Below are positions 17,128 through 58,595 of a stretch of DNA of 64,000 nucleotides, piece after piece. Position 1 is the stretch's first letter. Each line of letters opens with the position of its first letter. The notes below the pieces were generated by a model. That model ran no database searches. It was not told where the DNA came from and saw only the letters and a program-made list of their open reading frames with translations. Location: NCBI GenBank assembly GCA_963554175.1, contig CAUVQU010000002.1:10714-74713 (forward strand). The letters run 5' to 3'. The position numbers were made by a program, and so were the translations under genes. Source of the DNA: an uncultured Candidatus Saccharibacteria bacterium. Lineage in GTDB: Bacteria > Patescibacteriota > Saccharimonadia > Saccharimonadales > Saccharimonadaceae.

Positions 17128-17183
17128 ATATCGGTATCTAGAAGCTATAGCTTCAAAAATTGTTCTTTGAAAAGGAGAAGAAA

Positions 17184-18146
17184 ATGAGAAAAATGCACAA
17201 TCGTGTCACTACGGTGACGGACCTTGAGAATGCAAATGTAATCACTAATTCAGGCCGACATCATGCCGGGGATGTTTTTGCGACGGCAATGCTGTCGATG
17301 TTGAAGAAGGTGCGGGTGTTGCGCACTAATGATCAAGTTCTGGTTCAATATGCTAAGAAGAGTGGCCCGAAGGGGCTGGTGATGCTTGGTATTGGGGGAG
17401 AATTCAGAGCAGACAAAAAACGTTTTGATTATCATCAAGAGGGCTTCGAGGAGCACTATAGTGATTTTACAAAGCTCTCAACTGCAGGATTAGTCTGGCG
17501 TCACTATAGTATGGAAATATTGTCCAAGTTTGACTGCCCATTGCAGTTGATTGTGGAAGCCACAATGGATGTGAGCCATGATTTGGTTCATGGTATCGAT
17601 GCGAGAGACCAAGGCTGCTTAGCTAGTGGAATTGAGATGTCGGTATCAGAAGCAATCAATTTATTCAATCCAAACTGGGATGATCAGGACCAGGATCCTG
17701 ACGAAGCCTTCTTAGAGGCAGTTGGTTTTGCGCAAAAAATTCTTGAAAAAGAGATTAGGCGCGTGATTTCCATAGTGAAGGCTAAAAGCAAGATTGAAGA
17801 TATGGTTGCGCATAATGAGGGGGAATTTTTATATTTGCCAATGTATATTGGTGGCTGGGAGGAGTATATACTGAGATCTTTTAATCCGAAGGCGAAAAAG
17901 TTACTATATTGCGTTTTCCCCAATCTTGATGGCGAATGGAGCATACAGGCGGTCTCGGTTTCAAGAGATAATCTGGGATGCAAGAGAAAAAAGTTACCTA
18001 CAGCTTGGTGCGGATTAAAGGAAGCACAGTTGGTAAAGGCGACTGGGGTGGCCGAGGCGATTAATTGCGAAGCTAACGGTGCTTTAGCGCAAGCAAAAAC
18101 TTTGGCAGGAGCATTAACGCTGGTAAAGATTGCAATTTCTTCTTAA
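17184..18146 (+). CDS. MYG1 / UPF0160 family metal-dependent hydrolase, paralog 1
   Basis: SGRHHAGDVFATAML, KRFDYHQ, HGIDARDQG. Start at ATG 17184, which follows AAGGAG. Confidence 0.75.
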   Translation: MRKMHNRVTTVTDLENANVITNSGRHHAGDVFATAMLSMLKKVRVLRTNDQVLVQYAKKSGPKGLVMLGIGGEFRADKKRFDYHQEGFEEHYSDFTKLSTAGLVWRHYSMEILSKFDCPLQLIVEATMDVSHDLVHGIDARDQGCLASGIEMSVSEAINLFNPNWDDQDQDPDEAFLEAVGFAQKILEKEIRRVISIVKAKSKIEDMVAHNEGEFLYLPMYIGGWEEYILRSFNPKAKKLLYCVFPNLDGEWSIQAVSVSRDNLGCKRKKLPTAWCGLKEAQLVKATGVAEAINCEANGALAQAKTLAGALTLVKIAISS

Positions 18147-21191: not shown

Positions 21192-21247
21192 CGCAGAAAA
21201 TTCCTTCTGCGATCAAATTTTTTTGTTGCGGTAAGAGCCGCAGAAGG
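21192..21247 (+). promoter_or_regulatory. Candidate anti-SD / anti-anti-SD leader switch
   Basis: cgcagaa (21192-21198), ccttctgcg (21203-21211) and cgcagaagg (21239-21247, overlapping the SD AAGGAGG). The middle element can pair with either neighbour. The first hairpin is followed by atcaaattttttt. Confidence 0.4.
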
Positions 21248-21255
21248 AGGTAAAA

Positions 21256-22122: not shown

Positions 22123-22524
22123 ATGAGTACCATGAGAAAAAGTAACCAGACTATCTTAGATAGTCAGACCGTTCGTTTTAATATCAGCGGAGGTCCTAGC
22201 AGGGACAGGATCTTCGATGCGTGTAAGTATTTGCACGACAAGATCAAGATTGACCTGGATTTTAAAGTCATCCTGGGGTATTCAGCCCCGAAGGATGATC
22301 CGTGCTGTGCGGCATTTGAAGTACCGATCAAGGACTTTAGGGTACATAAGATTATGCATGAGGACGGATCAGGAGAGAGTTTTATGCTCTCCGGACGTTG
22401 TAAAGCGGATCTTGATCCGTGTATGCCTATTATAAAAAAATATAAGGAGTACGGCTTCTCGGCTTGGTATAATAGCAAGCGCAGAACGGGCTGGATCTCT
22501 TTGACTGAAAAGGAGGGGATGTAA
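22123..22524 (+). CDS. Hypothetical protein (133 aa)
   Basis: AAGGAGG RBS. Followed 1 nt later by the next ATG. Confidence 0.6.
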   Translation: MSTMRKSNQTILDSQTVRFNISGGPSRDRIFDACKYLHDKIKIDLDFKVILGYSAPKDDPCCAAFEVPIKDFRVHKIMHEDGSGESFMLSGRCKADLDPCMPIIKKYKEYGFSAWYNSKRRTGWISLTEKEGM

Positions 22525-23781: not shown

Positions 23782-24056
23782 GTTGACCTCCTTGCGGCTG
23801 TTGCCGCTTCTAAAAATATTTCCGCGGCCTATTCCGCGGTTTAGCCTGCCCACCAATCTTTAATAGACAGATTAAACCGCAGAAAAATGCAAGGGGGTGG
23901 TAGAATCTTTTAAGATACTGCTCTTTGCTAGAGCTTATATATTATAACATTCTAATGCTAAGTTGTCAATTTAGAAGATTATTTGATATATGTTCAAAAT
24001 TATATTATAATGACCCTGTTTCCAAAAAACGCACATTTACGAAAGGGGGTTCTGTT

Positions 24057-24404
24057 ATGGCAGAAAACAAAGGACTCAATGATTTTACAATCGACTGGAA
24101 TAAGGCGCATAGAAGCTTTTTCTTTACCATTCAATGGGCGCCAGTGGTTGGAAGGCCAGTGAATATCGATATGAGGTATACTGCGGTATGCTACGGGGAT
24201 CTATACACCACTGATGATTGGAATCATTTCAAAGCAATGGTTGATCTGAAGTCACATAATTTGATGATGGTGGTTTCTAGTGAGGAAGCTTTCAGTCAAG
24301 GTGTAGTACAGATTGTAGTGTCTTCGGCGAATCATGATTATAGCGAAAGTTATATCGTGAGCACTCTGGAATGGATCAGTAGAGATTTCTTTGGAGTAAA
24401 GTAA
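24057..24404 (+). CDS. Hypothetical protein (115 aa)
   Basis: ATG 24057 (MAENKGLND) follows AAGGGGG. Confidence 0.55.
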   Translation: MAENKGLNDFTIDWNKAHRSFFFTIQWAPVVGRPVNIDMRYTAVCYGDLYTTDDWNHFKAMVDLKSHNLMMVVSSEEAFSQGVVQIVVSSANHDYSESYIVSTLEWISRDFFGVK

Positions 24405-24411: not shown

Positions 24412-24437
24412 AACCCCGGTTTCCCGGGGTTATTTTC
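24412..24437. terminator. Bidirectional intrinsic terminator
   Basis: aaccccgg tttc ccggggtt with flanking A-run and T-run. Confidence 0.7.
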
Positions 24438-25482
24438 ATGGATGAGGATAGATCCTAAAGGTCGGATAGCCAAACCTTTGCATCTTGCTTTCTACTTCTC
24501 TGATCGAATTGAGACCAAGATTTTTGATCCTGAGCCAATCCATGTACGGATAATTAATAATATCCGAGATGGTATAAATTTCAGCTCTCCTCAGGGCTCG
24601 ATATGTGTGTGTCGTTAGGTCTAGGCACTCTATCTCGGTCTGATCTTCCACCTCGCCACTTAAGAACTCCTTTGCTTTTTCCGCGCATTCGTACGGAGTA
24701 AAGGTGATCTTTCTGAGCTCTTGTCTTAGAGCAAATTCCTCCTGGAAGAGAGGATTTTGCCTTAAGGATTTTAGTCTGTCGATGATATCATCAACAGTCT
24801 TTGTCTGAGCTTCAGAAGGCTTGAGAATAGAAGGCAACGCTCTGGCACTGCGGATCTTACGAATAGCAAGGTCCTCAGTCTGTCTGATCCTGTTGGATGA
24901 GACGCCTTGATCGATTGCGATCTCACAAGCTGCCATTACCTTACCTTCGAGTCCATACCACTTTGAGATGACCTGAAACTCTTTCTCGGTCAAGCAGCCT
25001 TTGATCCCTGCTTGGATCTTTTGGCATTGGCTAGTGGTCGGATTCTGATATGTCTCGTAGCTCAGATTTCCGAACGTATAGTCAATGGAAAAAGTTTGAT
25101 CATCCTTGAAGATCTTGCAGAGATCCTCGAACTCTACTACTACTGGTTCCTCTCTCATGAGATCGTGATGAACGGTCATGTATAAGAGGTTAATAGTAAA
25201 GGAGTTGGCCACAAAGTCGTGACGTAAATATCCTTTCTTATCTAGTGCGGCGGCAAGCTCCAGTAAATACTTTGGAGTTTTGCGGATGTAGTTTTCGTCG
25301 CGGTCGATTAGATAGGCGGTGCGCCTGCCCTGCCAGATAATCTCAGGAAGTGTCTGGTAATACTTTTCGAGATGTCCTTCTGCAGATTTTGATAAATATA
25401 GTTCATCTAGGCACTGCAAGTCGGCGGCTTTTCTGGCTGGTAAACTATAATATCCCCTGTTGGTATAAAGATTATTTGTCAT
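24436..25482 (-). CDS. Putative transcription factor: sigma-70 region 4-like HTH fused to an RNAP alpha-subunit CTD-like domain
   Basis: LTEKEFQVISKWYGLEGKVMAACEIAIDQGVSSNRIRQTEDLAIRKIR resembles sigma region 4.2. IECLDLTTHTYRALRRAEIYTISDIINYPYMDWLRIKNLGLNSIREVESKMQRFGY aligns by eye with E. coli alpha-CTD ([23 protein letters not shown]...LLKTPNLGKKSLTEIKDVL). Confidence 0.6.
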   Translation of the reverse strand: MTNNLYTNRGYYSLPARKAADLQCLDELYLSKSAEGHLEKYYQTLPEIIWQGRRTAYLIDRDENYIRKTPKYLLELAAALDKKGYLRHDFVANSFTINLLYMTVHHDLMREEPVVVEFEDLCKIFKDDQTFSIDYTFGNLSYETYQNPTTSQCQKIQAGIKGCLTEKEFQVISKWYGLEGKVMAACEIAIDQGVSSNRIRQTEDLAIRKIRSARALPSILKPSEAQTKTVDDIIDRLKSLRQNPLFQEEFALRQELRKITFTPYECAEKAKEFLSGEVEDQTEIECLDLTTHTYRALRRAEIYTISDIINYPYMDWLRIKNLGLNSIREVESKMQRFGYPTFRIYPHP

Positions 25483-25616
25483 TTTTTCTTCCCCCTTTTG
25501 GAAAAATTCTTAAAACAGAGATTATTAATAGAGGGACGCTCTAGAAAAATCCTCTTTTTAAGGTTCTCGCCATATATGACGTTTTTTGTATTTACAGACA
25601 AAGTCTGCATACTATA

Positions 25617-25645
25617 TATTATGCCATAAAGTATATGATTGTCAA
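25617..25645 (-). promoter_or_regulatory. Promoter of the sigma4/alpha-CTD gene
   Basis: Minus strand: TTGACA (25645-25640), 17-nt spacer, ATAATA (25622-25617). Confidence 0.4.
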
Positions 25646-25783: not shown

Positions 25784-28282
25784 ATGAGTCGAGGTATGGA
25801 ATTTGGCGGTGCTAATGTCGAGCAGGATAAAGAAGAAACGACAGATTGGCAGCAGGCGATGCAGGGGGTGAAGTTTCAGGGAGCAAAGACATTTAAATCT
25901 AGTGATAATGAGTTTTTAATTCCACCGACCCCAGAGGCAGAAACAAGTGAGGTTTTAAAGCATCCTGGAATACTCGGTACTTTTAAGAATTTTTTAGCAG
26001 AGAAATTTGGATCTAAAAAGGCGGGGACTGGGCTTTTTGGTCTGCTTGGAAAACAGGGGGCGAATTTATCTAGTCTATATGGAGCGAGTGTTGGCCAAGA
26101 AAAAATCAAGATTCCGGGAGTTGATGATGGTAATGGAGCGAACGAGGCTGCATCTGATGTAGCCGAGTCGATAAATGAGATTTTTCAGAACGATTACACA
26201 CACGAAGTGGTGGGTCAGACGGTGGATGAAGAACTAAGGCCTCCGATATGGGACGTAAAGAGGGTTAGTGAAAAACTTGGCTCAAATGAGGGCGGCTGGT
26301 TCGAGAAGCAGAATGGTGAAAAATATTATGTAAAATTTTATGAAAATCCAAATCAGGGGCGGGCGGAATTTATCGCCAATGCGATCTATGAAAAGGCTGG
26401 TATTAAGGCGGCGCATACTGAGAGAGTAATGATAGATGGACGGGAAGCAATTGCTTCGACGGCAGTTGAGGATGCGCGGCCAGTAGCGGCAGTAGATCAA
26501 GCGGCGAGTTTTGATGTGCAGAATGGGTTTGTGGCGGATGCGTTCTTGGCAAACTGGGATGTTGTAGGGGCGACATATGATAATATCGTGCAAAATCAAG
26601 ATGGTTTTTATCGGATCGATAATGGAGGCTCACTAATTTTTCGGGCGCAGGGTGGAGACAAAGAATTTAGTGCGAAGGAGATTCCTGAGCTCGAATCAAT
26701 GCGTGTACGGGGGCGGCAAACTGGGGAGGTTTTTAGTGGCATAACTGAAGAGGAGATTCAAAGACAGGCGCAAGAATTTGTACAGAAAGTACAGCCAGAA
26801 GATATTCTTTCGATTGTTAACCAATCAGGAATATCTGGGAAGGCGCGTGAGCGAGTGCTGCAGGGGCTTTTGGGACGAAGAGAGTATTTGGTTAATAAAT
26901 ATACCGATGAAAATGACAAAAGAGAAACTGCGAAGCTGCGTCGACGAGTATCAGTAAGTGAGGCATTGCAGGGATTAAAAAATCAGGAGTTGGAGAAGTC
27001 TTATGAGGGGGTGCTACGGATGAGGACTGAGGTGATTTGCGATCGTGATCATATTGAAGGGCAACGGATTGATATTATTGATAAGTCGGATGTGGGGTTA
27101 ACAGAGGTAAGATTGAAGGTACGAGATCATAGTAGCTTGATTGCTGCATTGAAGCGAAAATATCTTGAGCTCGAAGATCGTAAACAAGAGTTGAATTTAG
27201 CAGAGAGTGAAACGAAGGGAGCGGATGAGAAGATATATGTGGACAAATTTGTTTATGAAGGAGTAAACAATAAGAGGCCGCAAGAACTTTGTCAGGCTTT
27301 TGTGCTGCAAAAAGGTGATATTAAGGTTTATATCGCTGACCCCACAAAGCGCGCAAGAGGACGGCTGACGACGATCTATACGAATAATAACCAGAGCGGT
27401 TTAGTGCGAAGCGCACTGGGTTTGGTAAAAATTGAAATGCCGGCTGGAATGGATCCGATAGAAATTGAGCAGACAGTTGATGAGATTTTAGAAAAAGATC
27501 TTGGGATAAATAATGCACTTTCCGAGGTAACTGAGGAAGCGGCGCAAGAATATAAGGAATCACGTTTGAAGTGGCAGTATAAGATCGAGGGAGAGTTGTC
27601 TGTCGAGGAGAAAGAACGTGCAGAGAGACTTGAGCGAAAAGAGGTCTTCCCTGGCTATTCAACCTTAGTGGAGGAAGGCAAGCATCTTGAATATTTAGAG
27701 AAATATGGTGATGATCTGAGAGCGATACATAATATGGGTATAGCGTCGGCCGAAGATGTGAAGATGGTCTTCACGCAAGGGTTGATGTGCACCACGGAGC
27801 GTTTTTCTCGAGGTTTGATGCGAGGCGGACTTTCTTCGGTGAGAGATATGGACTCTGGGGGAGCGGATAATGTGTTTACGCGGATTATGGGAAAGGAAAA
27901 ACGAGCGGAGCTGGGAGGGGTTGTATTGATTTTGAAGCCTGAGATTTTCGATCGCACGGATTGGTATAGTTATTCCTCTGATACTTATGGGTCGACTGAT
28001 CGAAGTGAGTTCAAAAAACGTATGTCGCCTGATGAAGTATTTGATTTTGTGGCAAATAGTGGAGATTATATAAGAAATAATGAGCAGATGTTTCGGATGG
28101 GGATTGGGGCAGAATATATTGAGGGGGTGGAGGTGGATGCTCAATTTAGGGAGGAGATGATTGAGAAGTTACATGCAAGGGGGCTGCACGAGTTGAATGG
28201 AAAGAAGATTGAAGAGGTGATTGTGGCGCGGGAACCAGTGGCACTGAGAAGTGCAGTAGCGGAGACTTTGAGTCATGAATAG
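25784..28282 (+). CDS. Large protein with protein-kinase-like motifs and a conserved C-terminal domain (module copy A)
   Basis: 832 aa. Motifs: LGSNEGGWF (Gly-rich), YYVKFY (Lys), AEFIANAIY (Glu), DAFLANWDVVG..YDNIV, YRIDNGGSLIFRAQGG. C-terminal block: QGLMCTTERFSRGLMRGGLSS..DMDSGGADNVFTRI...NNEQMFRMGIGA. Colinear paralog at 43822..46665. Confidence 0.8.
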   Translation: MSRGMEFGGANVEQDKEETTDWQQAMQGVKFQGAKTFKSSDNEFLIPPTPEAETSEVLKHPGILGTFKNFLAEKFGSKKAGTGLFGLLGKQGANLSSLYGASVGQEKIKIPGVDDGNGANEAASDVAESINEIFQNDYTHEVVGQTVDEELRPPIWDVKRVSEKLGSNEGGWFEKQNGEKYYVKFYENPNQGRAEFIANAIYEKAGIKAAHTERVMIDGREAIASTAVEDARPVAAVDQAASFDVQNGFVADAFLANWDVVGATYDNIVQNQDGFYRIDNGGSLIFRAQGGDKEFSAKEIPELESMRVRGRQTGEVFSGITEEEIQRQAQEFVQKVQPEDILSIVNQSGISGKARERVLQGLLGRREYLVNKYTDENDKRETAKLRRRVSVSEALQGLKNQELEKSYEGVLRMRTEVICDRDHIEGQRIDIIDKSDVGLTEVRLKVRDHSSLIAALKRKYLELEDRKQELNLAESETKGADEKIYVDKFVYEGVNNKRPQELCQAFVLQKGDIKVYIADPTKRARGRLTTIYTNNNQSGLVRSALGLVKIEMPAGMDPIEIEQTVDEILEKDLGINNALSEVTEEAAQEYKESRLKWQYKIEGELSVEEKERAERLERKEVFPGYSTLVEEGKHLEYLEKYGDDLRAIHNMGIASAEDVKMVFTQGLMCTTERFSRGLMRGGLSSVRDMDSGGADNVFTRIMGKEKRAELGGVVLILKPEIFDRTDWYSYSSDTYGSTDRSEFKKRMSPDEVFDFVANSGDYIRNNEQMFRMGIGAEYIEGVEVDAQFREEMIEKLHARGLHELNGKKIEEVIVAREPVALRSAVAETLSHE

Positions 28283-28712
28283 AGATTTTGAGGAGCAGGT
28301 ATATTATGTCGAATCGGACCAGGATGAGTCGGTACTCGTGGCGGTGGGGTTAAAGATTCAGAGGAGTTCTCGTGATGGTGAGAATGTGGCTGGGGGTGTT
28401 GGCGGAGGTATTGGCAGTCACGAGAATGGATACAAACATGAGAATGGGAATCTGGGGGATGGCGGGGTATATTTTTTGGAGTGGTTTGACACTGTCTATT
28501 GGCGACGAATGACTGCGAGTGAGGTGTGGATGAAGAATGGTGAACTGTTTTTTAAAAGGATTGAGCCTGAAGGGGGTGGAATGTATCATTTTACGCCAAT
28601 GACTGTTGCGACCTATAATCAATTTGTGCGTGATGAATTGTTTGAGGCAAAAGATTTTATAGATGACGAAGAGGTGCGGCTGGCCTTTTTAAGGATGATA
28701 AAGAGAGTATAA
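28275..28712 (+). CDS. Small partner protein of module A (immunity/antidote-like?)
   Basis: 145 aa. ATG overlaps the upstream stop (ATGAATAG). VYYVESDQDESVLVAVG...RRMTASEVWMKNGELFFKRIEPEGGGMYHFTPM is homologous to 46697..47137. Confidence 0.75.
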   Translation: MNRDFEEQVYYVESDQDESVLVAVGLKIQRSSRDGENVAGGVGGGIGSHENGYKHENGNLGDGGVYFLEWFDTVYWRRMTASEVWMKNGELFFKRIEPEGGGMYHFTPMTVATYNQFVRDELFEAKDFIDDEEVRLAFLRMIKRV

Positions 28713-29221: not shown

Positions 29222-29462
29222 ATGACCATAAGCTTGAGAACGGCAAAAGAACCGGACAAAAGCTTAAGAACGTTAAGACCAATATGAAGATGTAAATCCT
29301 TAATCACAAGGTGGGATGAGTGAATATAATACAGTAGTAAAACTATTGAGCATATTATATTCAGCCACCCTACCTTGCGAAAAAAGAGCTTGGTGTCAGG
29401 GCGGTATCCGACCGATTCGGAAAATTTCCAGAGCGGCAGAGACCGCTAGAAAGGAGCCTATC

Positions 29463-30032: not shown

Positions 30033-31529
30033 ATGGATAAAACTTTTCCAGGAGCGGATTTTGTACGATCGTCTCAAGATGAGAAGCCTATTCAGGAATA
30101 TAATGAAAAGATAGATGTGGATAAGGCTCCTCTCTCAGCTAATCCAGCTTATAATCTTGGAAAAATCACTATAGAGTCAATGAATTTTGAGGATTTGACT
30201 CCTGAGTCATCGATGGATGAGGCGGAAAAGGAATCTTCGGAAGAGCTGGTAAATGAAAAAATACCAGTCATGGATACGGCTGAGAGGTTAGCTGCAAGAC
30301 AGGAAAAGTTGAAAAAAGGTATAAAAATCGTAATTGGCGGACCTCCACATTCGGGAAAGTCGGTGTTCATTGAGGCTCTAACCCAAAATCTTGATAAAGA
30401 TAATACTTTTTCGTTTAGTGCAGCACCAGATGGCGAGGGGCCTTGGTTGCAGCGACATTATGATGATCCTGATGTGGTAAAATTGCGACAAAAAGGAAAA
30501 TTCACTCCAGAATATGTGGCTGATCGCAAAAAGAAGATCAATGATTGGGAAGGACCACTGATGATTATTGATGTGGGTGGTCGAACAAGTGAGGAGAATG
30601 CACAGATGATTGAGGGGGCGACACATGCAATTATCCTTGCTGGTGATCTTTCTAAGGTTGCGGAATGGCGTGATTTCTTTGAAGAAAACAATATTGAAGT
30701 TATTGCAAAACTGCATAGTCATTATCAGGGTAAAAAAGATATTCAGCGACCAGTGGAAAGCGGAGAAAACCATATAGTTAGCTCTGTACATTATCTCGAA
30801 AGGGGGGAGCCGGCTGCTGATCGTGAGACCATTAATCAGGTAGCGGGTTTGATTACTGGCATGGTTGAGGGGAATGTGGCTTATAAGCAGGCTCACGAGG
30901 GCGAAAATGCTAATCCATTTGAATTATCGATTTCAGATGTGTTTAAGGACTTACCAAGTGAAACTATCGAGAGAACCATAAATACCCTCGATGGGCAGCA
31001 GAAGATAATACAGAATAGGCAAATATTGCGTTCGGCGATTCCTCAAATTTATGAGAAAGCGCTTAGTTATGATGCGCAGCCGGCGTGGTTGAGCGGACCA
31101 GTTAATTCTTGGGAGGCCATTGCGTTAGCTATGGCATTTGAGGAGGCCGGTAGCACGGATGTTCGTTTGCGAAGTCCGGACGGATTTGTCTCGGTAAAGA
31201 GTTTACCTGAAGCTGAGGAGTTGGATACGAAATGGTGGATGGAACCAAGGCAGCAGGGTGAGATGGATGGTAAGCCAATTTATGTAGTGCATAATACTGC
31301 ACACGTGTCTAATAATCCAATTTCTCCAGCCGATCTCGAATCAATGACAGTACCGAAACTGCCAGAGGATGCAATTGTAGTTATTTCTACGCAAGGTCCA
31401 AACTGGTTGAAAGCATCTATTGCTGCAGGTTACCGAGGTAAAGTGGCTGGGATTGCTGCTTTTCAACCTGGTGAAGGTTCAACTATAGCTTGGGCTGCAG
31501 ATAAGAATAATCTTGGAAAAATTATATAA
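30033..31529 (+). CDS. P-loop NTPase with a C-terminal domain possibly related to Csx3
   Basis: Walker A VIGGPPHSGKSVF and Walker B-like LMIIDVGG. The C-terminal AWLSGPVNSWEAIALAMAFEEAGSTDVRLRSPDGFVSV resembles, from memory, the Csx3 core ISGRGPIWLHCFLAHKY..VAVYDPRLGAVVV. Confidence 0.6.
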   Translation: MDKTFPGADFVRSSQDEKPIQEYNEKIDVDKAPLSANPAYNLGKITIESMNFEDLTPESSMDEAEKESSEELVNEKIPVMDTAERLAARQEKLKKGIKIVIGGPPHSGKSVFIEALTQNLDKDNTFSFSAAPDGEGPWLQRHYDDPDVVKLRQKGKFTPEYVADRKKKINDWEGPLMIIDVGGRTSEENAQMIEGATHAIILAGDLSKVAEWRDFFEENNIEVIAKLHSHYQGKKDIQRPVESGENHIVSSVHYLERGEPAADRETINQVAGLITGMVEGNVAYKQAHEGENANPFELSISDVFKDLPSETIERTINTLDGQQKIIQNRQILRSAIPQIYEKALSYDAQPAWLSGPVNSWEAIALAMAFEEAGSTDVRLRSPDGFVSVKSLPEAEELDTKWWMEPRQQGEMDGKPIYVVHNTAHVSNNPISPADLESMTVPKLPEDAIVVISTQGPNWLKASIAAGYRGKVAGIAAFQPGEGSTIAWAADKNNLGKII

Positions 31530-31595: not shown

Positions 31596-31716
31596 GAGTT
31601 CTTTTCATATTTATTGGAAGAACTGCACTCTTAATGCTTAGCTTGAACTTTATATGATTATATTGTATAATATTTATGTATTTATAAACAAATTGGACAT
31701 TAAAAAGGAGGGGTAT

Positions 31717-32655
31717 ATGATAAATATTCATAAGTTTTATAGTGAGAAAGTAAATTCGATCACACATGTGGCACCGCATCATGCCGATGAGGTATTTGCA
31801 ACGGCTATGTTGTCTATATTATTCCCTGTCGAGCTTCTGAGGACGCGCGACCAGGAGATTATAGAAAATACAAAAGCCATTGTTTATGATGTCGGTGGCG
31901 AATTTGATCCTTTCAGAAAACGTTTCGATCATCACCAGAAGAGTTTCTCTGAAATACGTGATGATGGAATTAGCTACTCATCGGCAGGGCTAATTTGGCG
32001 TGAGTATGGTGCATCGATTGTAAAATCGATGGCTAAAACTAGGCCAATCGATGATGTGATGACTGCAGAGGTAGTTTCCTTAGTCGACGAAGCGCTGATT
32101 CGAGGTATCGATGCGAGAGATAATGGACAAGGAGAGAAGGAGGATTCAATGTCTGTATCCTCGGTGATTTCCGCCTGCAATTCCCTTTGGGATGAGAATG
32201 AAGATGCTGACATGTGTTTTTTAAGAGCATGTGATTTAGCGATCGCAATTCTTGTGCGTGAAATTAAAGTGGCGATTTCGACTATTCGTGGCCGCAAGTT
32301 GGTAGCAGATAAGATTAAGACTGTCGATGGACCTATTTTGGTAATAGATCAGTTTATCGGCGGTTGGCTTGAAGAAGTTCTTAATACCGACAGTCCGAAA
32401 GCTGCAAGTTTGTTGTTCGCAGTTTTTCCTGCTACAAACGGAGACTGGAATATACAGGCAATCCCTCCATCAAAAGAAGATATGATGGGGCAAAGAAAAC
32501 CATTTCCAGATGCCTGGCGTGGGCTGAAAGATGAAGAGCTTATAGAGTCTTCTGGAGTAGGCACGGCTGTATTCTGCCATAAGGCTGGATTCTTTGCAGT
32601 TGCTAAAACCAAGGAGGATGCTATTAGGCTTGCTGAAAAGGCAGTCAATAGCTGA
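31717..32655 (+). CDS. MYG1 / UPF0160 family metal-dependent hydrolase, paralog 2
   Basis: APHHADEVFATAML, KRFDHHQ, RGIDARDNG. ATG 31717 follows AAGGAGGGG. Colinear with 17184..18146. Confidence 0.75.
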   Translation: MINIHKFYSEKVNSITHVAPHHADEVFATAMLSILFPVELLRTRDQEIIENTKAIVYDVGGEFDPFRKRFDHHQKSFSEIRDDGISYSSAGLIWREYGASIVKSMAKTRPIDDVMTAEVVSLVDEALIRGIDARDNGQGEKEDSMSVSSVISACNSLWDENEDADMCFLRACDLAIAILVREIKVAISTIRGRKLVADKIKTVDGPILVIDQFIGGWLEEVLNTDSPKAASLLFAVFPATNGDWNIQAIPPSKEDMMGQRKPFPDAWRGLKDEELIESSGVGTAVFCHKAGFFAVAKTKEDAIRLAEKAVNS

Positions 32656-32708: not shown

Positions 32709-32763
32709 ATGTAATGAATAAGTTTGACTAATAAATGATTCTAAACTTTTAATCAAAGCTCAG

Positions 32764-33687
32764 CTAGTTTTCTTGACGTTTTAGGCTTTGATTCAATATA
32801 TTGTAGTAGCATTCATCCGTATAGCCGTTTACTTTTATTTTACGAAATTTGTTAAGTGCAGTATTGAAATTACTAATAAAATCTTCACCTTCTTTTAAGT
32901 TAATGAGTTTATTTAATGCGTGGGCAGATGCGAGTCGAACCGCATCACAGGTCTGTATGGCACGATTAATAATCTCATCTTTGCCGCTAACTTCATTACG
33001 TAGTTTGTTGGCTAGGTTATGTGACTGTATGAATAAGCTAGATAGAATATTGAACTGCAGGTCAGGGTCGGGGGTATGGTAAACTGAACCTTCTTCATCC
33101 AGGTGAAAATTATCAAGATATTTTTGGTGACCAACGAAGAGGGGGCTTGCGCCTAGAATAAACCTAGGCACACCCTTCATGCATGCCACATAACTGTTAT
33201 CTTTGTAAAATTTAATAAAAGAACATCCTGACGGAATATCGCCTCTCGTATGGTCTCCACGAGCAAATTTCTTACTGACGGCGTCAGGCAAAGTGGCGGT
33301 ACATATATCTATGCCAAATACATGAGGAGCTTTGTTGATATCATCGCTAAGTTTACAGATGATATCGATACCATTAAGATGATCGTCGTATTCGGAGGCA
33401 AGACTTGCGCGGCAACCAGGCAATGTTTCTCCATGGTTGAGTGCGTAGGTAAATTCCCACTCGGCAAGTTTACCTGCTTCGTCACTGGAATCACGTTCAA
33501 ATCTAAGCTTATCGCTTAATTCTTCATTAGCCTTATCTATATATTCTTTGTTATAATAGCGCTTTCCAATAAAGTCGATTAACCGAGGCCTGTCGGCTTC
33601 TACCGCCTTTTCGATGGCTATTATTTTTTTCTCATTTTCAGTATAGTACTCATTACTATGCGGTGGATTATTTATCTTCTCCGTCAT
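32764..33687 (-). CDS. Hypothetical protein (307 aa)
   Basis: Start chosen at ATG 33687 (MTEKINNPP), 6 nt after a minus-strand TATAAT (33699-33694). A hairpin plus T-run lies between it and the upstream gene. Confidence 0.55.
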   Translation of the reverse strand: MTEKINNPPHSNEYYTENEKKIIAIEKAVEADRPRLIDFIGKRYYNKEYIDKANEELSDKLRFERDSSDEAGKLAEWEFTYALNHGETLPGCRASLASEYDDHLNGIDIICKLSDDINKAPHVFGIDICTATLPDAVSKKFARGDHTRGDIPSGCSFIKFYKDNSYVACMKGVPRFILGASPLFVGHQKYLDNFHLDEEGSVYHTPDPDLQFNILSSLFIQSHNLANKLRNEVSGKDEIINRAIQTCDAVRLASAHALNKLINLKEGEDFISNFNTALNKFRKIKVNGYTDECYYNILNQSLKRQEN

Positions 33688-33741
33688 ATGCAGATTATAA
33701 CACAAGAAAAAATAGGCCCCACCTAAATGTGGAGCCATGAC

Positions 33742-34077
33742 TTAAAAAGTGATTGGTGCTAAATTGTCGAAATATTCAAGAAAAAGATTCTTAATATACT
33801 CGACGTCCCCCCTGCCCATGATGATGGGATTTAATCTGATTACAATCTCACCATACTGGAGCCTATCTAGATCAGGCTTGCTGATCCCAGCTCTCAGCGA
33901 CAAATGGGTTATTAAGGTTGTAATATCAATTTTTTTGATATTGAACCTGCTGGGATTAAAGAAAAATCTCAGCTCAAAGTCACCAACCTCTCTTATAAGG
34001 AGAGGGGATTCTTTAGGTGGTAGAGGATCATCTTCAGTATAATCACTACACACCTCAAAGATCAAATCGTCATGCAT
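33742..34077 (-). CDS. Hypothetical protein (111 aa)
   Basis: ORF with a plausible acidic N-terminus. No motif recognised. Confidence 0.5.
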   Translation of the reverse strand: MHDDLIFEVCSDYTEDDPLPPKESPLLIREVGDFELRFFFNPSRFNIKKIDITTLITHLSLRAGISKPDLDRLQYGEIVIRLNPIIMGRGDVEYIKNLFLEYFDNLAPITF

Positions 34078-34204
34078 GCTATCACCTCCTCTATGGTGGA
34101 CGATATTGTTATATTATAGCATGGAATATTATTTTGTCAAGATTAAACGAAATGAGAATCAAAAATAGAAATTATAACCAAAGTTTTTATGCTATAGTTA
34201 AAAT

Positions 34205-37200
34205 ATGGAGAGTGGCAATAAATCAAAGGCAGACATTATTAAGAATAATGAGAATACTGAGACTGAAATTAATTGGGAAGACTTTAAAGAGGACGATGAC
34301 ATATTTGTGGCGACATTCGTAGCCCATGCTCTGCAAAAACAAAAAGTTAGAGAGAGATTTATTGACGGAAGAAAAAAATCTGTTCCAGAAATTCCTTATA
34401 AGTATAATCGAAGAAGAATTGAGCGAAATTTAGGCCATGTCGGTACTTCCATACTCGATGTTCGCGAGAAAACTACAGATAGGCAGGCTATAAGACAAGA
34501 ATTTAAGGATCATGGCGGGTTTAATATAGAGAACCTTGAGGATGAGAAGATTATCTCGCCTGAAAAAGTGTTTAAAAAATTTAATGGATTATTTACTTTC
34601 TTGGGCGAAAATACGAATGGTAATCCAAATCTATTAGAAGAATATAGGCAGATTGATGATAAAAAAGAAAAATTAAGGTTTATTCTAGAATCGTCTTTGG
34701 CTGATAAAGTCAGACTGTTTTATAATGAGTTAGAGTATCCAAATTATGATAATTTTTTACAACGGCTGCAGTTCCAACAAGATTTTATTAATGGAACAGC
34801 AAGGGTTTGGGATGATAAGTGGAATAGTTTGGCAGGAAAGTATGTTAAGGTTCAACGACTGCTTGATCCTGCTGAGGCTAATGTAAAGGATATATCACTC
34901 GGACTAAACCGGGCGTCATTAAAATCGGCAATGATTGGTACTCCAGAGTACGGTGCATATAAAATTGCTATGGATATAAAAAAGGATTATGACTTGAGAA
35001 AAACACCAGATTTTCCTGAGATCAACGGATACTGGTCTGGTATTACTAATACACGCATAGGTTCTTGGGAGACGATTATCGATGAGTATGGGGATATAGC
35101 TGACAAGATTGCTAAAAGAAATTCGGAATTGAATGAGGAAGAATTGGAGCATTTGACTGTTCGCAAAGTTGCTAAAATTTTCGCTGATTCGTTGGGATAT
35201 AATGATCCTGGTAGAGGGCCAGAGTCTCCTTATGTATCAAGATTCCACGAATCTGTAGCATGGGCGCAGTTAGGAGAAGGAGCTCAAAGACAGCTTCGAG
35301 GAATGCGGCAAAAAATCAGTTATTCTAATTTAAAGAATATAGAACGCTTTATCGGTAAATCTGGTTATTCGCAGAAGCGTAAGTCGTTTGAATCTGAAAG
35401 TGCGCGGTTAAAAGGTCGAGTGAAGCATATATTAGAACTGTCTAAAGACGATAAAGAGGCATTTTTGGTAAAAGAGAATGCGTTTGAGATAAAGAAACAA
35501 GAGGAATGGCGAGAAAAAGAAGTCGCAAGGATTAATCATAAATATAATAAGCTAATCGATAAAACTCGGAGCGAAGAACGTAAAGACGTTTTTGCGAAGC
35601 GACGGAAAGAAGAGGTTCGAAAAGTCACTATTGATACTTCGAGCCAAATTGAATATTTCGAGAATAGAACGTTAGATGGATTATTCTCTGATATTGAAAA
35701 GAGACAAGAACTACTTTCACGAAGAATTGAAAAACGGAAATCGTTAGCAGAAAAAGCGATTGATCTTCATTTTCAGCTGGAAGTTGATCAACAAAAATGG
35801 GATAATGACTCGGAGGAATATGTACGGGTCAAACCTTCTAGGTATAGTGTGTGTCTTGATTGGATTAACGATGCTCCTTTAGGGGTAATTAAACGATCGC
35901 ATAAGAGAATGGTCGAAGGGGTATCCGCTGATGATATCTATGTGCTTGCTATTGGTGATATATTCCAGAAAGTATTGAACGACTCAGAGCAGGTTGACAA
36001 TCTCATGTGGAGAATGTATGGCAATGACGATAATCTTGATGTATATGCAATTCGAAATATGGTACGTTTGGCTGGAAGGTTGTCTAAAAGTGGTGAAAAG
36101 TTAAGCTATTCGGAACTGGAAGCTATGTCTAAGCAAGATACTAGGTGGATAGAGGAGTCACTTGCAATGTTTCCGATGACTGATGTGAAGCGATTTCTTG
36201 ATAATGAGCTAAATCTTTCCCTTGTACCAAAAATAAGTCGCGTTGCTAATCAATTTGGATATAATTTAGATACTGATCAATTGATTAATCTCGCAAGTAA
36301 GAGAATAATAAATTCTTACTACTTTAAAACAGTGGAGAGTATATTTTCTTCTACTCTTAAAAATTTTTCATTAGAGGAAGCGATAAGCGCCATGGATGCA
36401 AACGTGGATTTGAGGGTTTTGAACAAAACTAGGTCAATTTTATCCACTGAGGGGATTACTGATTTTTCTGATATATTAGATCGAGCGACTAAGCTATGTC
36501 GGCTTTCTGATGATGAAGGTGGACATGAGAAGCTTATTTTAGATTATTGTAATGCTATTACATCTTTGGGATTAAAGAAAGCTGATATCTTACTAGCGAG
36601 AGGGGTTAATCTAGGTACATTTAATATGATATCTAGAAAATTTAGTAGTATTGTTGATGGTGATTTTGATAAAACCCTTGAGCTATCTGACAGGGTTAGT
36701 GCTATTTTAAATAAGCGAGGAGAACTAGACAAAGAAGAATCTTCCATTCGTACTTTACGTACTATTGACAATGGTAAGCAATATACAGAGATTCAAATAG
36801 CTGATTTATATAAATACGGAATTTTAGCTAATGATTATAAAGAGGTATTCATAAATTCTGATCGTGATAAAAACGATATCGTGAGAACGTATGAAAAAAA
36901 TAATCTAAATTTTGACGACAAAGTCAAACTATTAAAGAATTCCATGAGAGGTAGTTTTGAGGCATGGAGGATTAGAGAAGCTATTGAGCATTTTGATGAT
37001 GATGTGTTGCATAAGATTGCAGCGGAAGGTGCAGATGTTGTACGTGCTTCCAGGATTAAATATCTATTAAACAAAGAAGATAAATATGCGGAATTTAATA
37101 CTATGGAAAACGTATTATATTTGGCATCAAACAATCTAGATGTTGACGTTTTTCTACGTGCTACTGAAGCTGGTTTTAGTGTAGACGAAATTAAATTATA

Positions 37201-37246
37201 TCCATTCTTAGCTTCGGATTTATTAATTAAGGAAAGGACTAAATGA
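34205..37246 (+). CDS. Large helical hypothetical protein; first gene of the MoxR-VWA operon
   Basis: 1013 aa, no TM or signal peptide. Extended -10 TGCTATAGT (34190-34198) lies 6 nt before the ATG. Its stop overlaps the next start (ATGA). Confidence 0.75.
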   Translation: MESGNKSKADIIKNNENTETEINWEDFKEDDDIFVATFVAHALQKQKVRERFIDGRKKSVPEIPYKYNRRRIERNLGHVGTSILDVREKTTDRQAIRQEFKDHGGFNIENLEDEKIISPEKVFKKFNGLFTFLGENTNGNPNLLEEYRQIDDKKEKLRFILESSLADKVRLFYNELEYPNYDNFLQRLQFQQDFINGTARVWDDKWNSLAGKYVKVQRLLDPAEANVKDISLGLNRASLKSAMIGTPEYGAYKIAMDIKKDYDLRKTPDFPEINGYWSGITNTRIGSWETIIDEYGDIADKIAKRNSELNEEELEHLTVRKVAKIFADSLGYNDPGRGPESPYVSRFHESVAWAQLGEGAQRQLRGMRQKISYSNLKNIERFIGKSGYSQKRKSFESESARLKGRVKHILELSKDDKEAFLVKENAFEIKKQEEWREKEVARINHKYNKLIDKTRSEERKDVFAKRRKEEVRKVTIDTSSQIEYFENRTLDGLFSDIEKRQELLSRRIEKRKSLAEKAIDLHFQLEVDQQKWDNDSEEYVRVKPSRYSVCLDWINDAPLGVIKRSHKRMVEGVSADDIYVLAIGDIFQKVLNDSEQVDNLMWRMYGNDDNLDVYAIRNMVRLAGRLSKSGEKLSYSELEAMSKQDTRWIEESLAMFPMTDVKRFLDNELNLSLVPKISRVANQFGYNLDTDQLINLASKRIINSYYFKTVESIFSSTLKNFSLEEAISAMDANVDLRVLNKTRSILSTEGITDFSDILDRATKLCRLSDDEGGHEKLILDYCNAITSLGLKKADILLARGVNLGTFNMISRKFSSIVDGDFDKTLELSDRVSAILNKRGELDKEESSIRTLRTIDNGKQYTEIQIADLYKYGILANDYKEVFINSDRDKNDIVRTYEKNNLNFDDKVKLLKNSMRGSFEAWRIREAIEHFDDDVLHKIAAEGADVVRASRIKYLLNKEDKYAEFNTMENVLYLASNNLDVDVFLRATEAGFSVDEIKLYPFLASDLLIKERTK

Positions 37247-37596
37247 TGATAATTATTGATAATATTTCCCCGAAATTAGATAAAACAATAGCAATACATA
37301 CGAAGAAGAGTCTCGGTGCTACTGCTTCAGTTTGGCTGCATGAGATTGCAAGAAAACTAGAGGATTATAATCTACCAATAGAATGTTGGCAAATAGGAAA
37401 AGATGCTGTCGGAAATGAGATAAAAATTAATTGCTTAGGGAGGTTCTTATTCGGTGTCCCTGGTTATGATGGGCATCTAAGAGTGGTTATGAATGGAACG
37501 GAATTAACGATCTATTATCCTTCTGAACCAGTGGAGGTTGAAGGGTTGTTGAAAAGAATAAAATATGAGGTAGAAAACGGAGGCAGTCATGAATAA
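37243..37596 (+). CDS. Small hypothetical protein (117 aa); operon gene 2
   Basis: Overlaps both neighbours (ATGA at 37243; downstream ATG 37589 lies before its stop at 37596). Confidence 0.65.
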   Translation: MMIIIDNISPKLDKTIAIHTKKSLGATASVWLHEIARKLEDYNLPIECWQIGKDAVGNEIKINCLGRFLFGVPGYDGHLRVVMNGTELTIYYPSEPVEVEGLLKRIKYEVENGGSHE

Positions 37597-39640: not shown

Positions 39641-39643
39641 TTT

Positions 39644-42850: not shown

Positions 42851-42866
42851 TTAAGAAGGGAGTATT

Positions 42867-43421
42867 ATGGAGGTAGTTAATGAAAAACTAGTTTTGGGGA
42901 CGCAATGGGGAGAGGAGAAAACAGGCGAGGTATTTGATTACGATGAATTTGGACAATACTTAGATGATATTGAGACTCAACTTTCTCCACGACATATACT
43001 GGATGAATTGAATGAGACTATAGATTCGGTAGAGAATGAGCTAGATTCGTATGATTCAAATATAATGTCTAGTAGTAAAGAGACAAAAAGAAAAATGGCA
43101 GTTGCAGCTATTGAATCGTATAATTTGAATCTGTTAGCTAGAGATGAGGATTTTAATGTTAGAACGCTGGCTTTATGTAATAAGGCTATTTCTCCGGCGA
43201 TTTTGGAGCAGACAATTGAAGATATTGGAAATGACGACAAATTCACTTTAATGGTGATAGCCAATAATCCAAGTGCTTCAACTAGACTCCTTGGCAGAAT
43301 ATATGATTTGGCTGGTGATGAAAGAGAGGTTCAGACGGCAATTCTAAGAAATCCAAATTGTGATGATGTTTTGCGGTTTAAAATTAATAGCCTAAGAGAA
43401 CGTGTCGGGGCTAGTATGTAA
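42867..43421 (+). CDS. HEAT/LRV-like repeat protein; operon gene 5
   Basis: NVRTLALCNKAISPAILEQ..., VIANNPSASTRLLGRIYDL..., EVQTAILRNPNCDD resemble leucine-rich-repeat-variant / HEAT-PBS repeats. Confidence 0.5.
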   Translation: MEVVNEKLVLGTQWGEEKTGEVFDYDEFGQYLDDIETQLSPRHILDELNETIDSVENELDSYDSNIMSSSKETKRKMAVAAIESYNLNLLARDEDFNVRTLALCNKAISPAILEQTIEDIGNDDKFTLMVIANNPSASTRLLGRIYDLAGDEREVQTAILRNPNCDDVLRFKINSLRERVGASM

Positions 43422-43501
43422 ATAGTACGCACTTATACGGTGTGGTTATCACGCTACGCTACCCTAATTCCTCGAGTGCAGCACTTCGAGACCTATAGAC
43501 T

Positions 43502-58588: not shown

Positions 58589-58595
58589 TAGTGCT

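What the first reader, a model, noticed from the sequence alone, without database searches (positions are those of the whole stretch)
24436..25482. Single polypeptide combining sigma-70 region 4 with an RNA polymerase alpha-CTD-like domain
Residues around 165-215 look like sigma region 4.2 (a -35-binding HTH). The last roughly 70 residues align well by eye with the alpha-subunit C-terminal domain, which is the UP-element and activator contact module. The N-terminal roughly 160 aa are unassigned. I do not recognise this combination as a described family. It could act as an RNAP-mimicking or RNAP-recruiting regulator of the uniform island promoters.
Basis: partly seen in the sequence, partly recalled or inferred. 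Interest (0 to 1): 0.65.

Follow-up and report, generated by a model that had tools for sequence, protein, structure and literature searches.

The report
RNAP-derived three-module regulator in Saccharibacteria
This gene of an oral Saccharibacteria (TM7) bacterium encodes a real, conserved protein built from copies of the promoter-recognising parts of RNA polymerase (one sigma region 4 and two alpha-CTD-like domains). It belongs to a large, unnamed, fast-evolving family that most likely binds promoter-like DNA as a transcription regulator.

Summary
The ORF at 24436-25482 (-) encodes 348 aa. It has an RNA_pol_A_CTD domain (res 279-335, 43.6 bits, above Pfam's cut-off) and a Sigma70_r4 domain (res 163-211, 19.9 bits, just below cut-off).

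At family level both calls are strong. A 41-member profile hits RpoA CTD chains at 5e-19 and the whole of sigma-A domain 4 at 3e-16.

The "unassigned" N-terminus is partly resolved. Residues 18-88 are a second, degenerate alpha-CTD-like domain (hhalign 95%, E 2e-8; 86% against genuine RpoA CTDs). A family-specific middle segment follows, carrying near-invariant N139/Y142/E143.

With the deep alignment AlphaFold gives pLDDT 91.9 and pTM 0.79. No solved or viral structure matches the whole chain.

The protein is not a one-off. 148 representative clusters match at E<1e-10, none with a name in any source that was checked, and no paper was found. Contexts that could be placed are Saccharibacteria.

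A sister lineage has the architecture split: one linker+alpha-CTD protein next to three N+sigma4 paralogues. The sigma4+alpha-CTD pairing also recurs in other architectures.

There is no sigma region 2 and no alpha-NTD, so it is neither a sigma factor nor RpoA. The best reading is a promoter-like DNA-binding regulator. Its targets and the sign of its effect are unknown.

The parts
24436..25482 (-). Gene for the 348-aa protein (N alpha-CTD-like - middle - sigma4 - helical connector - alpha-CTD)
   Evidence: ORF. Orthologues at 66-99% identity in Saccharibacteria MAGs. dN/dS about 0.12.
25219..25431 (-). Residues 18-88: degenerate alpha-CTD-like (HhH) domain. R53 is invariant in 159/159 family members; the motif ALDxAG(F/Y)IRHD closes the domain.
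   Evidence: hhalign against the family's own C-terminal alpha-CTD: 95.4%, E 1.8e-8, 62 columns. Against four genuine RpoA CTDs: 85.7%, E 5.5e-6, 55 columns. Column frequencies. Not detected by Pfam or PDB sequence search.
25006..25218 (-). Residues 89-159: family-specific middle segment (helices plus a variable beta-hairpin insert at 123-134) with near-invariant N139, Y142 and E143.
   Evidence: Alignment A2 and column counts. AF2 secondary structure. No Pfam, PDB or hhalign match.
24841..25005 (-). Residues 160-214: sigma-70 domain 4 (regions 4.1-4.2 HTH). Recognition helix VSSNRIRQTEDLAIRKIRS, against sigma-A VTRERIRQIEAKALRKLRH.
   Evidence: Pfam Sigma70_r4 at 19.9 bits. Family profile against sigma-A/RpoD domain 4 at 3e-16. 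Residue alignment. Column frequencies.
24649..24840 (-). Residues 215-278: conserved three-helix connector (LPxI ... PxFxxExEL ... PF). It travels with the alpha-CTD when the protein is split.
   Evidence: A2 consensus. Architecture census, lnk-aC forms. L017 150-aa protein aligns to window res 237-347. AF2 helices 224-240, 246-259 and 266-276.
24463..24648 (-). Residues 279-340: RNA polymerase alpha-subunit C-terminal domain (alpha-CTD).
   Evidence: Pfam PF03118 at 43.6 bits. PDB RpoA CTDs at 1.3e-8. Foldseek TM 0.8-0.9, rmsd 1.1-1.7 A.
25618..25645 (-). Predicted promoter of the gene: TTGACA - 16 nt - CATAAT with an upstream TG. The ~125-nt leader that follows contains two small palindromes.
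   Evidence: Consensus scan. Conserved in L001-L003. Prediction only.
24412..24431 (.). Bidirectional intrinsic terminator shared with the convergent gene 24057-24404.
   Evidence: Terminator scan, 8-bp stem with 6 GC pairs on both strands; sequence.
24057..24404 (+). Co-conserved neighbour c8 (about 115 aa, no known domain). It lies beside family members in distant loci. This is association only.
   Evidence: Local clustering and gene maps: adjacent in L001-L003, L010 and L011, and present in L036. No Pfam hit.
32764..33738 (-). Co-conserved neighbour c17 (324 aa, no known domain). It is directly adjacent to family members in L010, L011 and L014. Here it lies 7 kb away, inside a strain-specific insertion. 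This is association only.
   Evidence: No Pfam, PADLOC or PHROG hit.

Best explanation
The protein is a DNA-binding transcription regulator assembled from exapted copies of RNA polymerase's own upstream-promoter-recognition modules.

- A complete sigma-A-type domain 4 (HTH) would read a -35-like hexamer in the major groove.
- The C-terminal alpha-CTD (HhH) would contact an adjacent A+T-rich minor groove, as alpha-CTD does at UP elements.
- The N-terminal degenerate alpha-CTD plus the invariant middle segment form the family-specific core. This core probably packs the modules into one rigid unit and provides a partner or signal surface.

The protein lacks sigma region 2 and the alpha-NTD. It therefore cannot melt DNA or assemble into core RNAP. 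It should act by occupying promoter-like sites, either competing with holoenzyme (repression) or contacting it (activation).

Its likely targets are the lineage-specific, fast-evolving genes that travel with it (c8, c17, c1, and the divergent 832-aa gene).

Shown: the domain identities, the compact high-confidence fold, family size, split/fused evolution, purifying selection and co-conserved neighbours.

Inferred: DNA binding, promoter-like targets and regulatory outcome.
For: - Domain identities.
- DNA-contact residues are the plurality state across the family. The sigma4 recognition helix is T/S-R-E-R-V/I-R-Q, and several members carry the exact sigma-A string VTRERIRQIEAKALRKLR.
- The positions equivalent to E. 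coli alpha-CTD R265, N268, C269, N294, G296, K298 and S299 are R 75%, N 50%, C 51%, N 61%, G 75%, K 44% and S 40%. The residue roles come from established knowledge of the 265 determinant.
- The recognition-helix positions vary between paralogues while the scaffold A(L/I)RK(L/I)R is conserved. That is the pattern of a diversifying DNA-specificity family.
- AF2 gives pLDDT 91.9 and pTM 0.79 with the 41-sequence alignment.
- The Rosetta-stone split into linker+alpha-CTD and N+sigma4 proteins encoded side by side implies that the halves work together.
- No Sigma70_r2 and no alpha-NTD hit in any of the 41 members.
- The gene has its own promoter and terminator, and dN/dS is 0.12.
- Conserved neighbourhood across loci where the protein itself is only 23-36% identical.
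Against: - No binding site, target or expression data were obtained. The public-run search found no usable RNA evidence.
- In this particular orthologue group the canonical contacts are partly replaced. In sigma4, R584->S and E585->N. In alpha-CTD, R265->H (R in most orthologues), N268->R, C269->A and K298->N/S. Specificity, and possibly affinity, therefore differ from RNAP's modules.
- The most conserved residues of the family (R53, R87, N139, Y142, E143) lie outside the two recognised DNA-binding domains. The key activity could be something other than DNA reading.
- Model coordinates and PAE were not available, so the inter-domain geometry could not be inspected.
Confidence: 0.5

Rival explanations
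1. RNAP-associated specificity factor (sigma-like or 'sigma-4 swap'). The sigma4 domain docks on the beta-flap tip in place of, or alongside, sigma-A region 4 and re-targets holoenzyme to promoters with a different -35 element. The alpha-CTD adds UP-like contacts. The N+middle core binds core RNAP or sigma-A. In the split lineage, several N+sigma4 specificity subunits would share one alpha-CTD subunit.
For: - The sigma4 match covers the whole of domain 4 including region 4.1, the part that binds the beta flap in sigma factors (the role is established knowledge).
- N+middle+sigma4 proteins of 200-220 aa are the size of ECF sigmas. They occur as 3-4 paralogues with variable recognition helices beside a single linker+alpha-CTD gene.
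- Foldseek gives long (224-248 column) but non-significant alignments to sigma-A chains.
Against: - There is no detectable sigma region 2 or 3 by Pfam, PDB profile or hhalign.
- The N domain is alpha-CTD-derived, not sigma2-like.
- The Foldseek whole-chain matches have E>0.01 and TM 0.17.
- No interaction test was possible.
Confidence: 0.2
2. Molecular decoy or sensor. The protein displays RNAP's alpha-CTD and sigma4 surfaces to capture factors that normally target them, such as phage or competitor proteins that modify or bind alpha-CTD or sigma4, or endogenous activators. It would act as a sponge or as the sensing part of a defence or conflict system.
For: - The gene sits in a hypervariable island that also holds an AAA-Csx3 protein. 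Restriction/defence-like genes appear to lie further on, but the 51.5-63 kb region was judged by eye from the translated N-termini and never scanned.
- Weak local similarity to the alpha-CTD-like stretch of BREX PglW and to the MzaA sigma factor.
- A helicase+sigma4+3x alpha-CTD relative lies beside a serine recombinase and Bro-N.
- Phages encode stand-alone alpha-CTD proteins.
Against: - The PADLOC hits are marginal (E 1e-3) and cover one domain only.
- No effector domain is fused, and none was recognised among the conserved neighbours.
- In another Saccharibacteria genome (L036) the gene lies among housekeeping genes.
- Conservation of DNA-contact residues across the family points to DNA, not protein, as the ligand.
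Confidence: 0.1
3. Architectural or nucleoid-associated DNA-binding protein. Three weak DNA-binding modules bind A+T-rich DNA with low specificity and shape the chromosome, not individual promoters.
For: - Multiple HhH/HTH modules. Relatives carry up to 11 tandem alpha-CTD repeats.
- The genome is A+T-rich, about 40% GC.
Against: - The recognition helix diversifies between paralogues and several paralogues occur per genome, which suggests specific sites.
- The family evolves fast and sits in variable islands, unlike core nucleoid proteins.
Confidence: 0.1
4. Chance or generic similarity: the C-terminal region is only a generic helix-hairpin-helix and the HTH a generic HTH, with no relation to RNAP subunits.
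For: Sigma70_r4 on the single sequence is below Pfam's gathering score.
Against: - RNA_pol_A_CTD is 20 bits above its gathering score.
- The family profile hits only RpoA CTD and sigma-A domain 4 chains at 1e-12 to 5e-19.
- Generic HHH_5 hits 1 of 41 members.
- Foldseek rmsd is 1.1-1.7 A to alpha-CTD structures.
Confidence: 0.02

Closest known systems
RNA polymerase alpha subunit C-terminal domain (RpoA alpha-CTD, Pfam PF03118)
   Same: Same fold and sequence family. The family consensus LSxRTYNCLKRAGIxTV...RNxGxKS keeps the DNA-binding '265 determinant'.
   Different: No alpha-NTD (dimerisation and core assembly), so it is not an RNAP subunit. In this orthologue group several DNA-contact residues are replaced. 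A second, degenerate copy sits at the N-terminus.
Primary sigma factor domain 4 (sigma-70/sigma-A regions 4.1-4.2, Pfam PF04545)
   Same: The whole domain aligns. The recognition helix in many members is identical to sigma-A (VTRERIRQIEAKALRKLR).
   Different: No regions 1.2-3, and in particular no sigma2. It therefore has no -10 recognition or melting and none of the known core-binding determinants. The window protein has S-S-N where sigma-A has T-R-E.
Stand-alone sigma4-like HTH regulators (GerE/LuxR-type effector domains) - functional analogy only, from general knowledge
   Same: A sigma4-type HTH used outside a sigma factor as a promoter-binding regulator.
   Different: No Pfam GerE/LuxR hit here. 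The similarity is specifically to group-1 sigma region 4, and the HTH is combined with alpha-CTD modules.
Phage and other stand-alone alpha-CTD proteins (BFVD entries annotated 'RNA polymerase, alpha subunit, C-terminal', about 130 aa; Mycobacterium phage Mithril protein)
   Same: An alpha-CTD domain exists outside RpoA.
   Different: These lack sigma4 and the N/middle core. No INPHARED phage record encodes the full architecture, and only one partial (sigma4+alpha-CTD) hit was found in IMG/VR.
Sigma appropriation and split sigma systems (T4 AsiA/MotA; two-subunit sigma SigO-RsoA) - analogy from general knowledge
   Same: -35 recognition is supplied in trans by a separate protein. This resembles the split N+sigma4 / linker+alpha-CTD arrangement in the sister lineage.
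   Different: No sequence or fold relationship was found, and no evidence of RNAP binding was obtained.
Other uncharacterised sigma4+alpha-CTD architectures found here (P0073 226 aa; P0126 sigma4+5 alpha-CTD; P0103 Spo0A_C x3+sigma4+alpha-CTD x3; P0120/P0258 SF2 helicase+sigma4+alpha-CTD x3)
   Same: They share the sigma4 - helical connector - alpha-CTD module.
   Different: They lack the N alpha-CTD-like and middle core. P0126 has a Firmicute-like context and P0258 a mobile-element-like one.

Membership tests
Sigma-70 family sigma factor | Region 2 (sigma2: core binding, -10 recognition and melting) | tested here: not met
   No Sigma70_r2 or ECF hit in the window protein at E<=10 or in any of 41 members. 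The N+middle profile finds no sigma chain in the PDB.
Sigma-70 family sigma factor | Region 4 (sigma4 HTH, -35 recognition) | tested here: met
   Pfam 19.9 bits on the single protein, below the gathering score of 24.1. 27/41 members hit, best 1e-14. Profile against sigma-A domain 4 at 3e-16.
Sigma-70 family sigma factor | Binds core RNAP and directs initiation | not testable with these tools
   Needs biochemistry or complex modelling.
RNA polymerase alpha subunit (RpoA) | Alpha-NTD (dimerisation, beta/beta' assembly) | tested here: not met
   NCBIfam rpoA equivalog models match only their C-terminal ~60-80 positions. Scores are 22-44 bits against cut-offs of 228-523. No RNA_pol_A_bac or RNA_pol_L hit.
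RNA polymerase alpha subunit (RpoA) | Alpha-CTD domain (PF03118) | tested here: met
   43.6 bits against a gathering score of 23.8. rmsd 1.1-1.7 A to solved alpha-CTDs.
Alpha-CTD DNA-binding '265 determinant' (R265, N268, C269, G296, K298, S299 in E. coli numbering) | Conservation of the DNA-contact residues | tested here: inconclusive
   These are the plurality residues across the family: R 75%, N 50%, C 51%, G 75%, K 44%, S 40%. The window protein has H, R, A, G, N, S, and its orthologues mostly R, R, A, G, S/N, S.
Anti-phage systems (BREX PglW, MZA MzaA; PADLOC models) | Full-length match to a system component, plus partner genes | tested here: not met
   Only a 76-residue local hit to PglW (E 1e-3) and a 59-residue hit to MzaA (E 0.014). 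No hit to either system's models among the eight neighbouring proteins that were scanned.
New family defined here: N alpha-CTD-like + middle + sigma4 (+/- connector + alpha-CTD) | Full-length homology including invariant R53 and the N139-x-x-Y142-E143 motif | tested here: met
   64 full-length and 56 N+middle+sigma4 members aligned. R53 100%, Y142 98%, E143 95%.

The most novel reading that the evidence does not exclude
The protein is a single-chain copy of the whole upstream-promoter-recognition apparatus of RNAP holoenzyme (two alpha-CTDs plus sigma region 4). It defines a new class of transcription-initiation factor in Saccharibacteria.

It would either dock on RNAP, with sigma4 on the beta flap, to swap -35/UP specificity in trans, or pre-occupy UP/-35 sites as a holoenzyme mimic. 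In some lineages it would work as a modular two-component system: several N+sigma4 specificity subunits sharing one alpha-CTD subunit. It would control the fast-evolving, lineage-specific island genes of these epibionts.
Probability: 0.2. Interest if true: 0.8.

Novelty: new variant of a known kind. Interest (0 to 1): 0.55.

Why it matters
Saccharibacteria and other Patescibacteria have tiny genomes. Almost nothing is known about how they regulate the lineage-specific genes thought to underlie their epibiotic lifestyle.

This is a large, unnamed, rapidly diversifying regulator family. It is made entirely of recycled RNAP promoter-recognition modules, and it sits in hypervariable islands beside equally uncharacterised conserved genes. 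That gives a concrete handle on the regulation problem.

The family is also a clean natural example of domain exaptation from the transcription machinery. The fused and split forms predict a protein-protein interaction. Genetically tractable Saccharibacteria now exist (PMC10633639), so the predictions can be tested.

Tried and rejected
1. Sigma region 2 or ECF-like identity for the N-terminus. Rejected: no Pfam, PDB-profile or hhalign signal.
2. Generic HhH instead of alpha-CTD. Rejected.
3. Phage origin. tblastn against 50,697 phage records gave no full-architecture hit; the hits were host rpoD/rpoA fragments. IMG/VR gave one partial sigma4+alpha-CTD locus (L005) and one 25-residue hit.
4. 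Known defence-system component. Only marginal one-domain PADLOC hits.
5. First AF2 run with 20 near-identical orthologues was uninformative (pLDDT 54.6). It worked only with the diverse alignment.
6. Whole-chain fold search. No significant analogue in PDB or BFVD.
7. The search for related loci with the 41-sequence alignment failed for lack of a conserved stretch. A 10-sequence sub-alignment worked.
8. Expression evidence. No near-identical public run; the only 'RNA?' run yielded a 15-kb contig at under 90% identity, which is not evidence of transcription.
9. Special 'island promoter' motif. Only ordinary -35/-10 consensus was found.
10. Phylogenetic footprinting of the upstream region. The four sequences are too similar (89% identity) to separate operators from background.
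11. Literature. Seven searches and one paper read found nothing on the architecture.
12. Source names for family members. None.
Full report
**Observation.** The window is a chromosome segment of a Candidatus Saccharibacteria (TM7) bacterium. Near-identical and syntenic loci come from Saccharibacteria / Nanosyncoccus MAGs. The left flank is housekeeping: pyrophosphatase, GH97, glycosyltransferases, DinB-type polymerase, MYG1 and NUDIX.

The ORF at 24436-25482 (-) is real. It has a Shine-Dalgarno sequence and a near-consensus promoter at 25645-25618. It shares a bidirectional terminator at 24412-24431 with the convergent gene. It is under purifying selection, with dN/dS about 0.12.

Pfam finds RNA_pol_A_CTD at residues 279-335 (43.6 bits, cut-off 23.8). 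It finds Sigma70_r4 at 163-211 (19.9 bits, cut-off 24.1). NCBIfam and PDB sequence searches agree.

**Family.** The word-indexed search found only orthologues at 66% identity or more, none with a name. An exhaustive HMMER scan of 1.84 billion representatives changed the picture. It found 1066 hits at E<1e-3, 148 at E<1e-10 and 28 at E<1e-30. Many are full-length matches (300-360 aa) at 25-38% identity.

In an alignment of 41 full-length members (A2), 39 hit RNA_pol_A_CTD (best 4e-23) and 27 hit Sigma70_r4 (best 1e-14). The family profile matches RpoA CTD chains at 5e-19. It matches the whole of sigma-A/RpoD domain 4, regions 4.1 and 4.2, at 3e-16. Both domains are therefore specifically RNAP-derived. 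Generic HHH_5 hits only one member.

**The N-terminus.** The distant relatives share the motif KAETLKSLDELNLSxRTxxYL...SLDEIIWxGR...ALDxAGFIRHD.
- Profile-profile comparison aligns residues 18-85 with the family's own C-terminal alpha-CTD over 62 columns (95.4%, E 1.8e-8). Control pairs score below 2%.
- Against a small alignment of genuine RpoA CTDs the N domain still scores 85.7%, E 5.5e-6, over 55 columns.
- Sequence-to-profile methods do not see it, so this domain is degenerate.
- The following middle segment (89-159) matches nothing known.
- The family's most conserved positions lie in these two regions: R53 100%, Y142 98%, E143 95%, R87 91%, N139 86%.
- No sigma region 2 signal exists anywhere.

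**Structure.** With only close orthologues AlphaFold failed (pLDDT 54.6). With A2 it gave pLDDT 91.9 and pTM 0.79. A pTM that high for a five-segment protein suggests a defined, compact arrangement.

Foldseek finds domain-level matches only. Alpha-CTDs match at rmsd 1.1-1.7 A and TM 0.8-0.9. Sigma-A chains align long but non-significantly. Phage stand-alone alpha-CTD proteins also appear. No whole-chain analogue exists in PDB or BFVD. Coordinates and PAE were not available to me.

**Functional residues.** Across about 180 sigma4 and 146 alpha-CTD copies, the plurality residues equal the canonical DNA contacts.
- The sigma4 recognition helix is T/S-R-E-R-V/I-R-Q, followed by the conserved scaffold A-L/I-R-K-L-R. 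Several members carry the exact sigma-A string.
- The alpha-CTD positions equivalent to E. coli R265, N268, C269, N294, G296, K298 and S299 are R 75%, N 50%, C 51%, N 61%, G 75%, K 44% and S 40%.
- The base-contacting positions of the HTH vary between members while the scaffold does not. That is the usual signature of diversifying DNA specificity.
- The window orthologue group deviates. It has S-S-N for T-R-E in sigma4, and H/R, R, A, N/S in the alpha-CTD determinant. Its site is unlikely to be a plain TTGACA plus UP element.

**Modularity and the split form.** A census of 221 aligned sequences gives:
- 64 full architectures, plus 24 with a short connector;
- 56 N+middle+sigma4 proteins of about 200-220 aa without alpha-CTD;
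- 21 connector+alpha-CTD proteins;
- 19 sigma4+connector+alpha-CTD proteins.

In one group of metagenomic loci (L015-L028) a 150-175-aa connector+alpha-CTD gene lies next to three N+middle+sigma4 paralogues. These are interspersed with small unknown genes. The halves align to window residues 237-347 and 16-200.

That lineage is a related Saccharibacterium. Its DinB fragment is 75.5% identical to the window's, and the array lies next to dinB, as the island does here. Fused here and split there, encoded side by side, the two halves are predicted to act together.

**Wider pairing.** The sigma4-connector-alpha-CTD module also occurs elsewhere:
- a minimal 226-aa protein;
- sigma4 with 2-5 alpha-CTDs;
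- three Spo0A_C domains plus sigma4 plus three alpha-CTDs;
- an SF2 helicase with sigma4 and three alpha-CTDs.

Two of these were placed. One is Firmicute-like (P0126, Coat_F neighbour). One lies next to a serine recombinase and Bro-N (P0258). The combination is therefore recurrent in nature, although I found no description of it.

**Context.** Immediate neighbours have no Pfam, PHROG or PADLOC identity. Several are nevertheless co-conserved with the family across loci where the regulator is only 23-36% identical.
- c8 (24057-24404) is adjacent here and in L001-L003, L010 and L011, and is present in L036.
- c17 (32764-33738) is directly adjacent to family members in L010, L011 and L014.
- c1 (22123-22524), c9 and c10 (the divergent 832-aa gene) also recur.

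P0036, at 36% identity, lies in a Saccharibacteria chromosome whose Tgt is 85% identical to named Saccharibacteria Tgt. The family therefore evolves much faster than housekeeping genes.

The 'uniform island promoters' are ordinary -35/-10 consensus promoters. The same kind is present in the housekeeping flank.

**Mechanism.** The best-supported reading (about 0.5) is a sequence-specific DNA-binding regulator. It uses a sigma4 HTH and an alpha-CTD HhH, held in a fixed geometry by an alpha-CTD-derived N domain, the middle segment and a helical connector. It would bind promoter-like DNA near the lineage-specific genes that travel with it.

The protein lacks sigma2 and the alpha-NTD. It can neither initiate transcription nor assemble into RNAP. 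It could repress by occupying UP/-35 regions, or activate by contacting holoenzyme.

The rivals are:
- a sigma-like or sigma4-swap factor that rides on RNAP (about 0.2);
- a decoy or sensor for factors that target alpha-CTD or sigma4 (about 0.1);
- a low-specificity architectural protein (about 0.1).

Chance similarity is excluded.

**Verdict.** The protein belongs to a large, undescribed, apparently Saccharibacteria-centred family. Its architecture is richer than proposed (alpha-CTD-like, middle, sigma4, connector, alpha-CTD), with informative split forms.

Function remains inferred. I rate it a new variant of a known kind (HTH/HhH transcription regulators), of moderate to good interest.

Noticed in passing
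window 32709-47320: A 14.6-kb insertion absent from the otherwise collinear MAG loci L002 and L003. It carries c17 and c33, three giant unknown ORFs (1013, 683 and 1068 aa), and a diverged second copy (63-69% nt) of the 832-aa+145-aa gene pair (43822-46665 + 46697-47137). The window's c17 is 63% identical to that of the distant locus L014, although the adjacent regulators are only 23% identical. This suggests horizontal acquisition.
   Followed up: partly
window 21228-21249 (+), 23788-23807 (-), 29433-29456 (+): A small GC hairpin abuts the Shine-Dalgarno sequence (GCGG-N6-CCGC-N0-4-(A)AGGAG) upstream of three unrelated island genes. Three were found against 0.05 expected by shuffling. It may be a shared translational or stability element.
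   Followed up: partly
window 25520-25615 (minus strand, leader of the target gene): Two palindromes lie downstream of the predicted -10: CAGACTTTGTCTG and CG(T/C)CATATATGGCG. In L003 both arms change together (CAGAT..ATCTG; CACCATATATGGTG). They could be operators or 5'-UTR hairpins. Four sequences are too few to decide.
   Followed up: partly
window 30033-31529: A 498-aa AAA-Csx3 fusion protein (PADLOC Csx3 1e-45, C3a67 'AAA-Csx3' 2e-37; Pfam Cas_csx3 at the C-terminus). No CRISPR array or cas genes were noticed nearby, but neither was searched for.
   Followed up: no
window 17160-18146 and 31654-32655: Two MYG1/UPF0160 paralogues bracket the variable island. The sister lineage's island carries DHH and HD-like phosphohydrolase genes instead (L017 3500-4408 and 2451-3488).
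   Followed up: no
window 25784-28282 + 28275-28712: An 832-aa protein with no known domain is divergently transcribed from the regulator. An overlapping 145-aa gene follows it. The pair is duplicated in the insertion, and a 40%-identical fragment occurs in L016. No consensus -35 at proper spacing was seen upstream by eye, so it is a candidate activator-dependent target. This is speculative.
   Followed up: partly
window 51524-63203: Judging only from the translated N-termini, this stretch looks like restriction-modification or defence genes: large helicase/methylase-like ORFs, a DUF262-like N-terminus at 59408, and an Hsp70-like ATPase at 61536. None of it was scanned.
   Followed up: no
L015-L028 (e.g. 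L017 5905-10816): Tandem arrays of four family paralogues (one connector+alpha-CTD, three N+sigma4) alternate with small unknown genes (clusters c1, c2, c3, c6, c5) in a conserved order across 12 metagenomic contigs.
   Followed up: partly
P0064 (1031 aa), P0103 (1003 aa), P0120/P0258 (1075 aa; L037 7954-11181): Large uncharacterised proteins. One has 11 tandem alpha-CTD repeats. One has three Spo0A_C domains plus sigma4 plus three alpha-CTDs. One has an SF2 helicase plus sigma4 plus three alpha-CTDs and lies next to a serine recombinase and Bro-N.
   Followed up: partly
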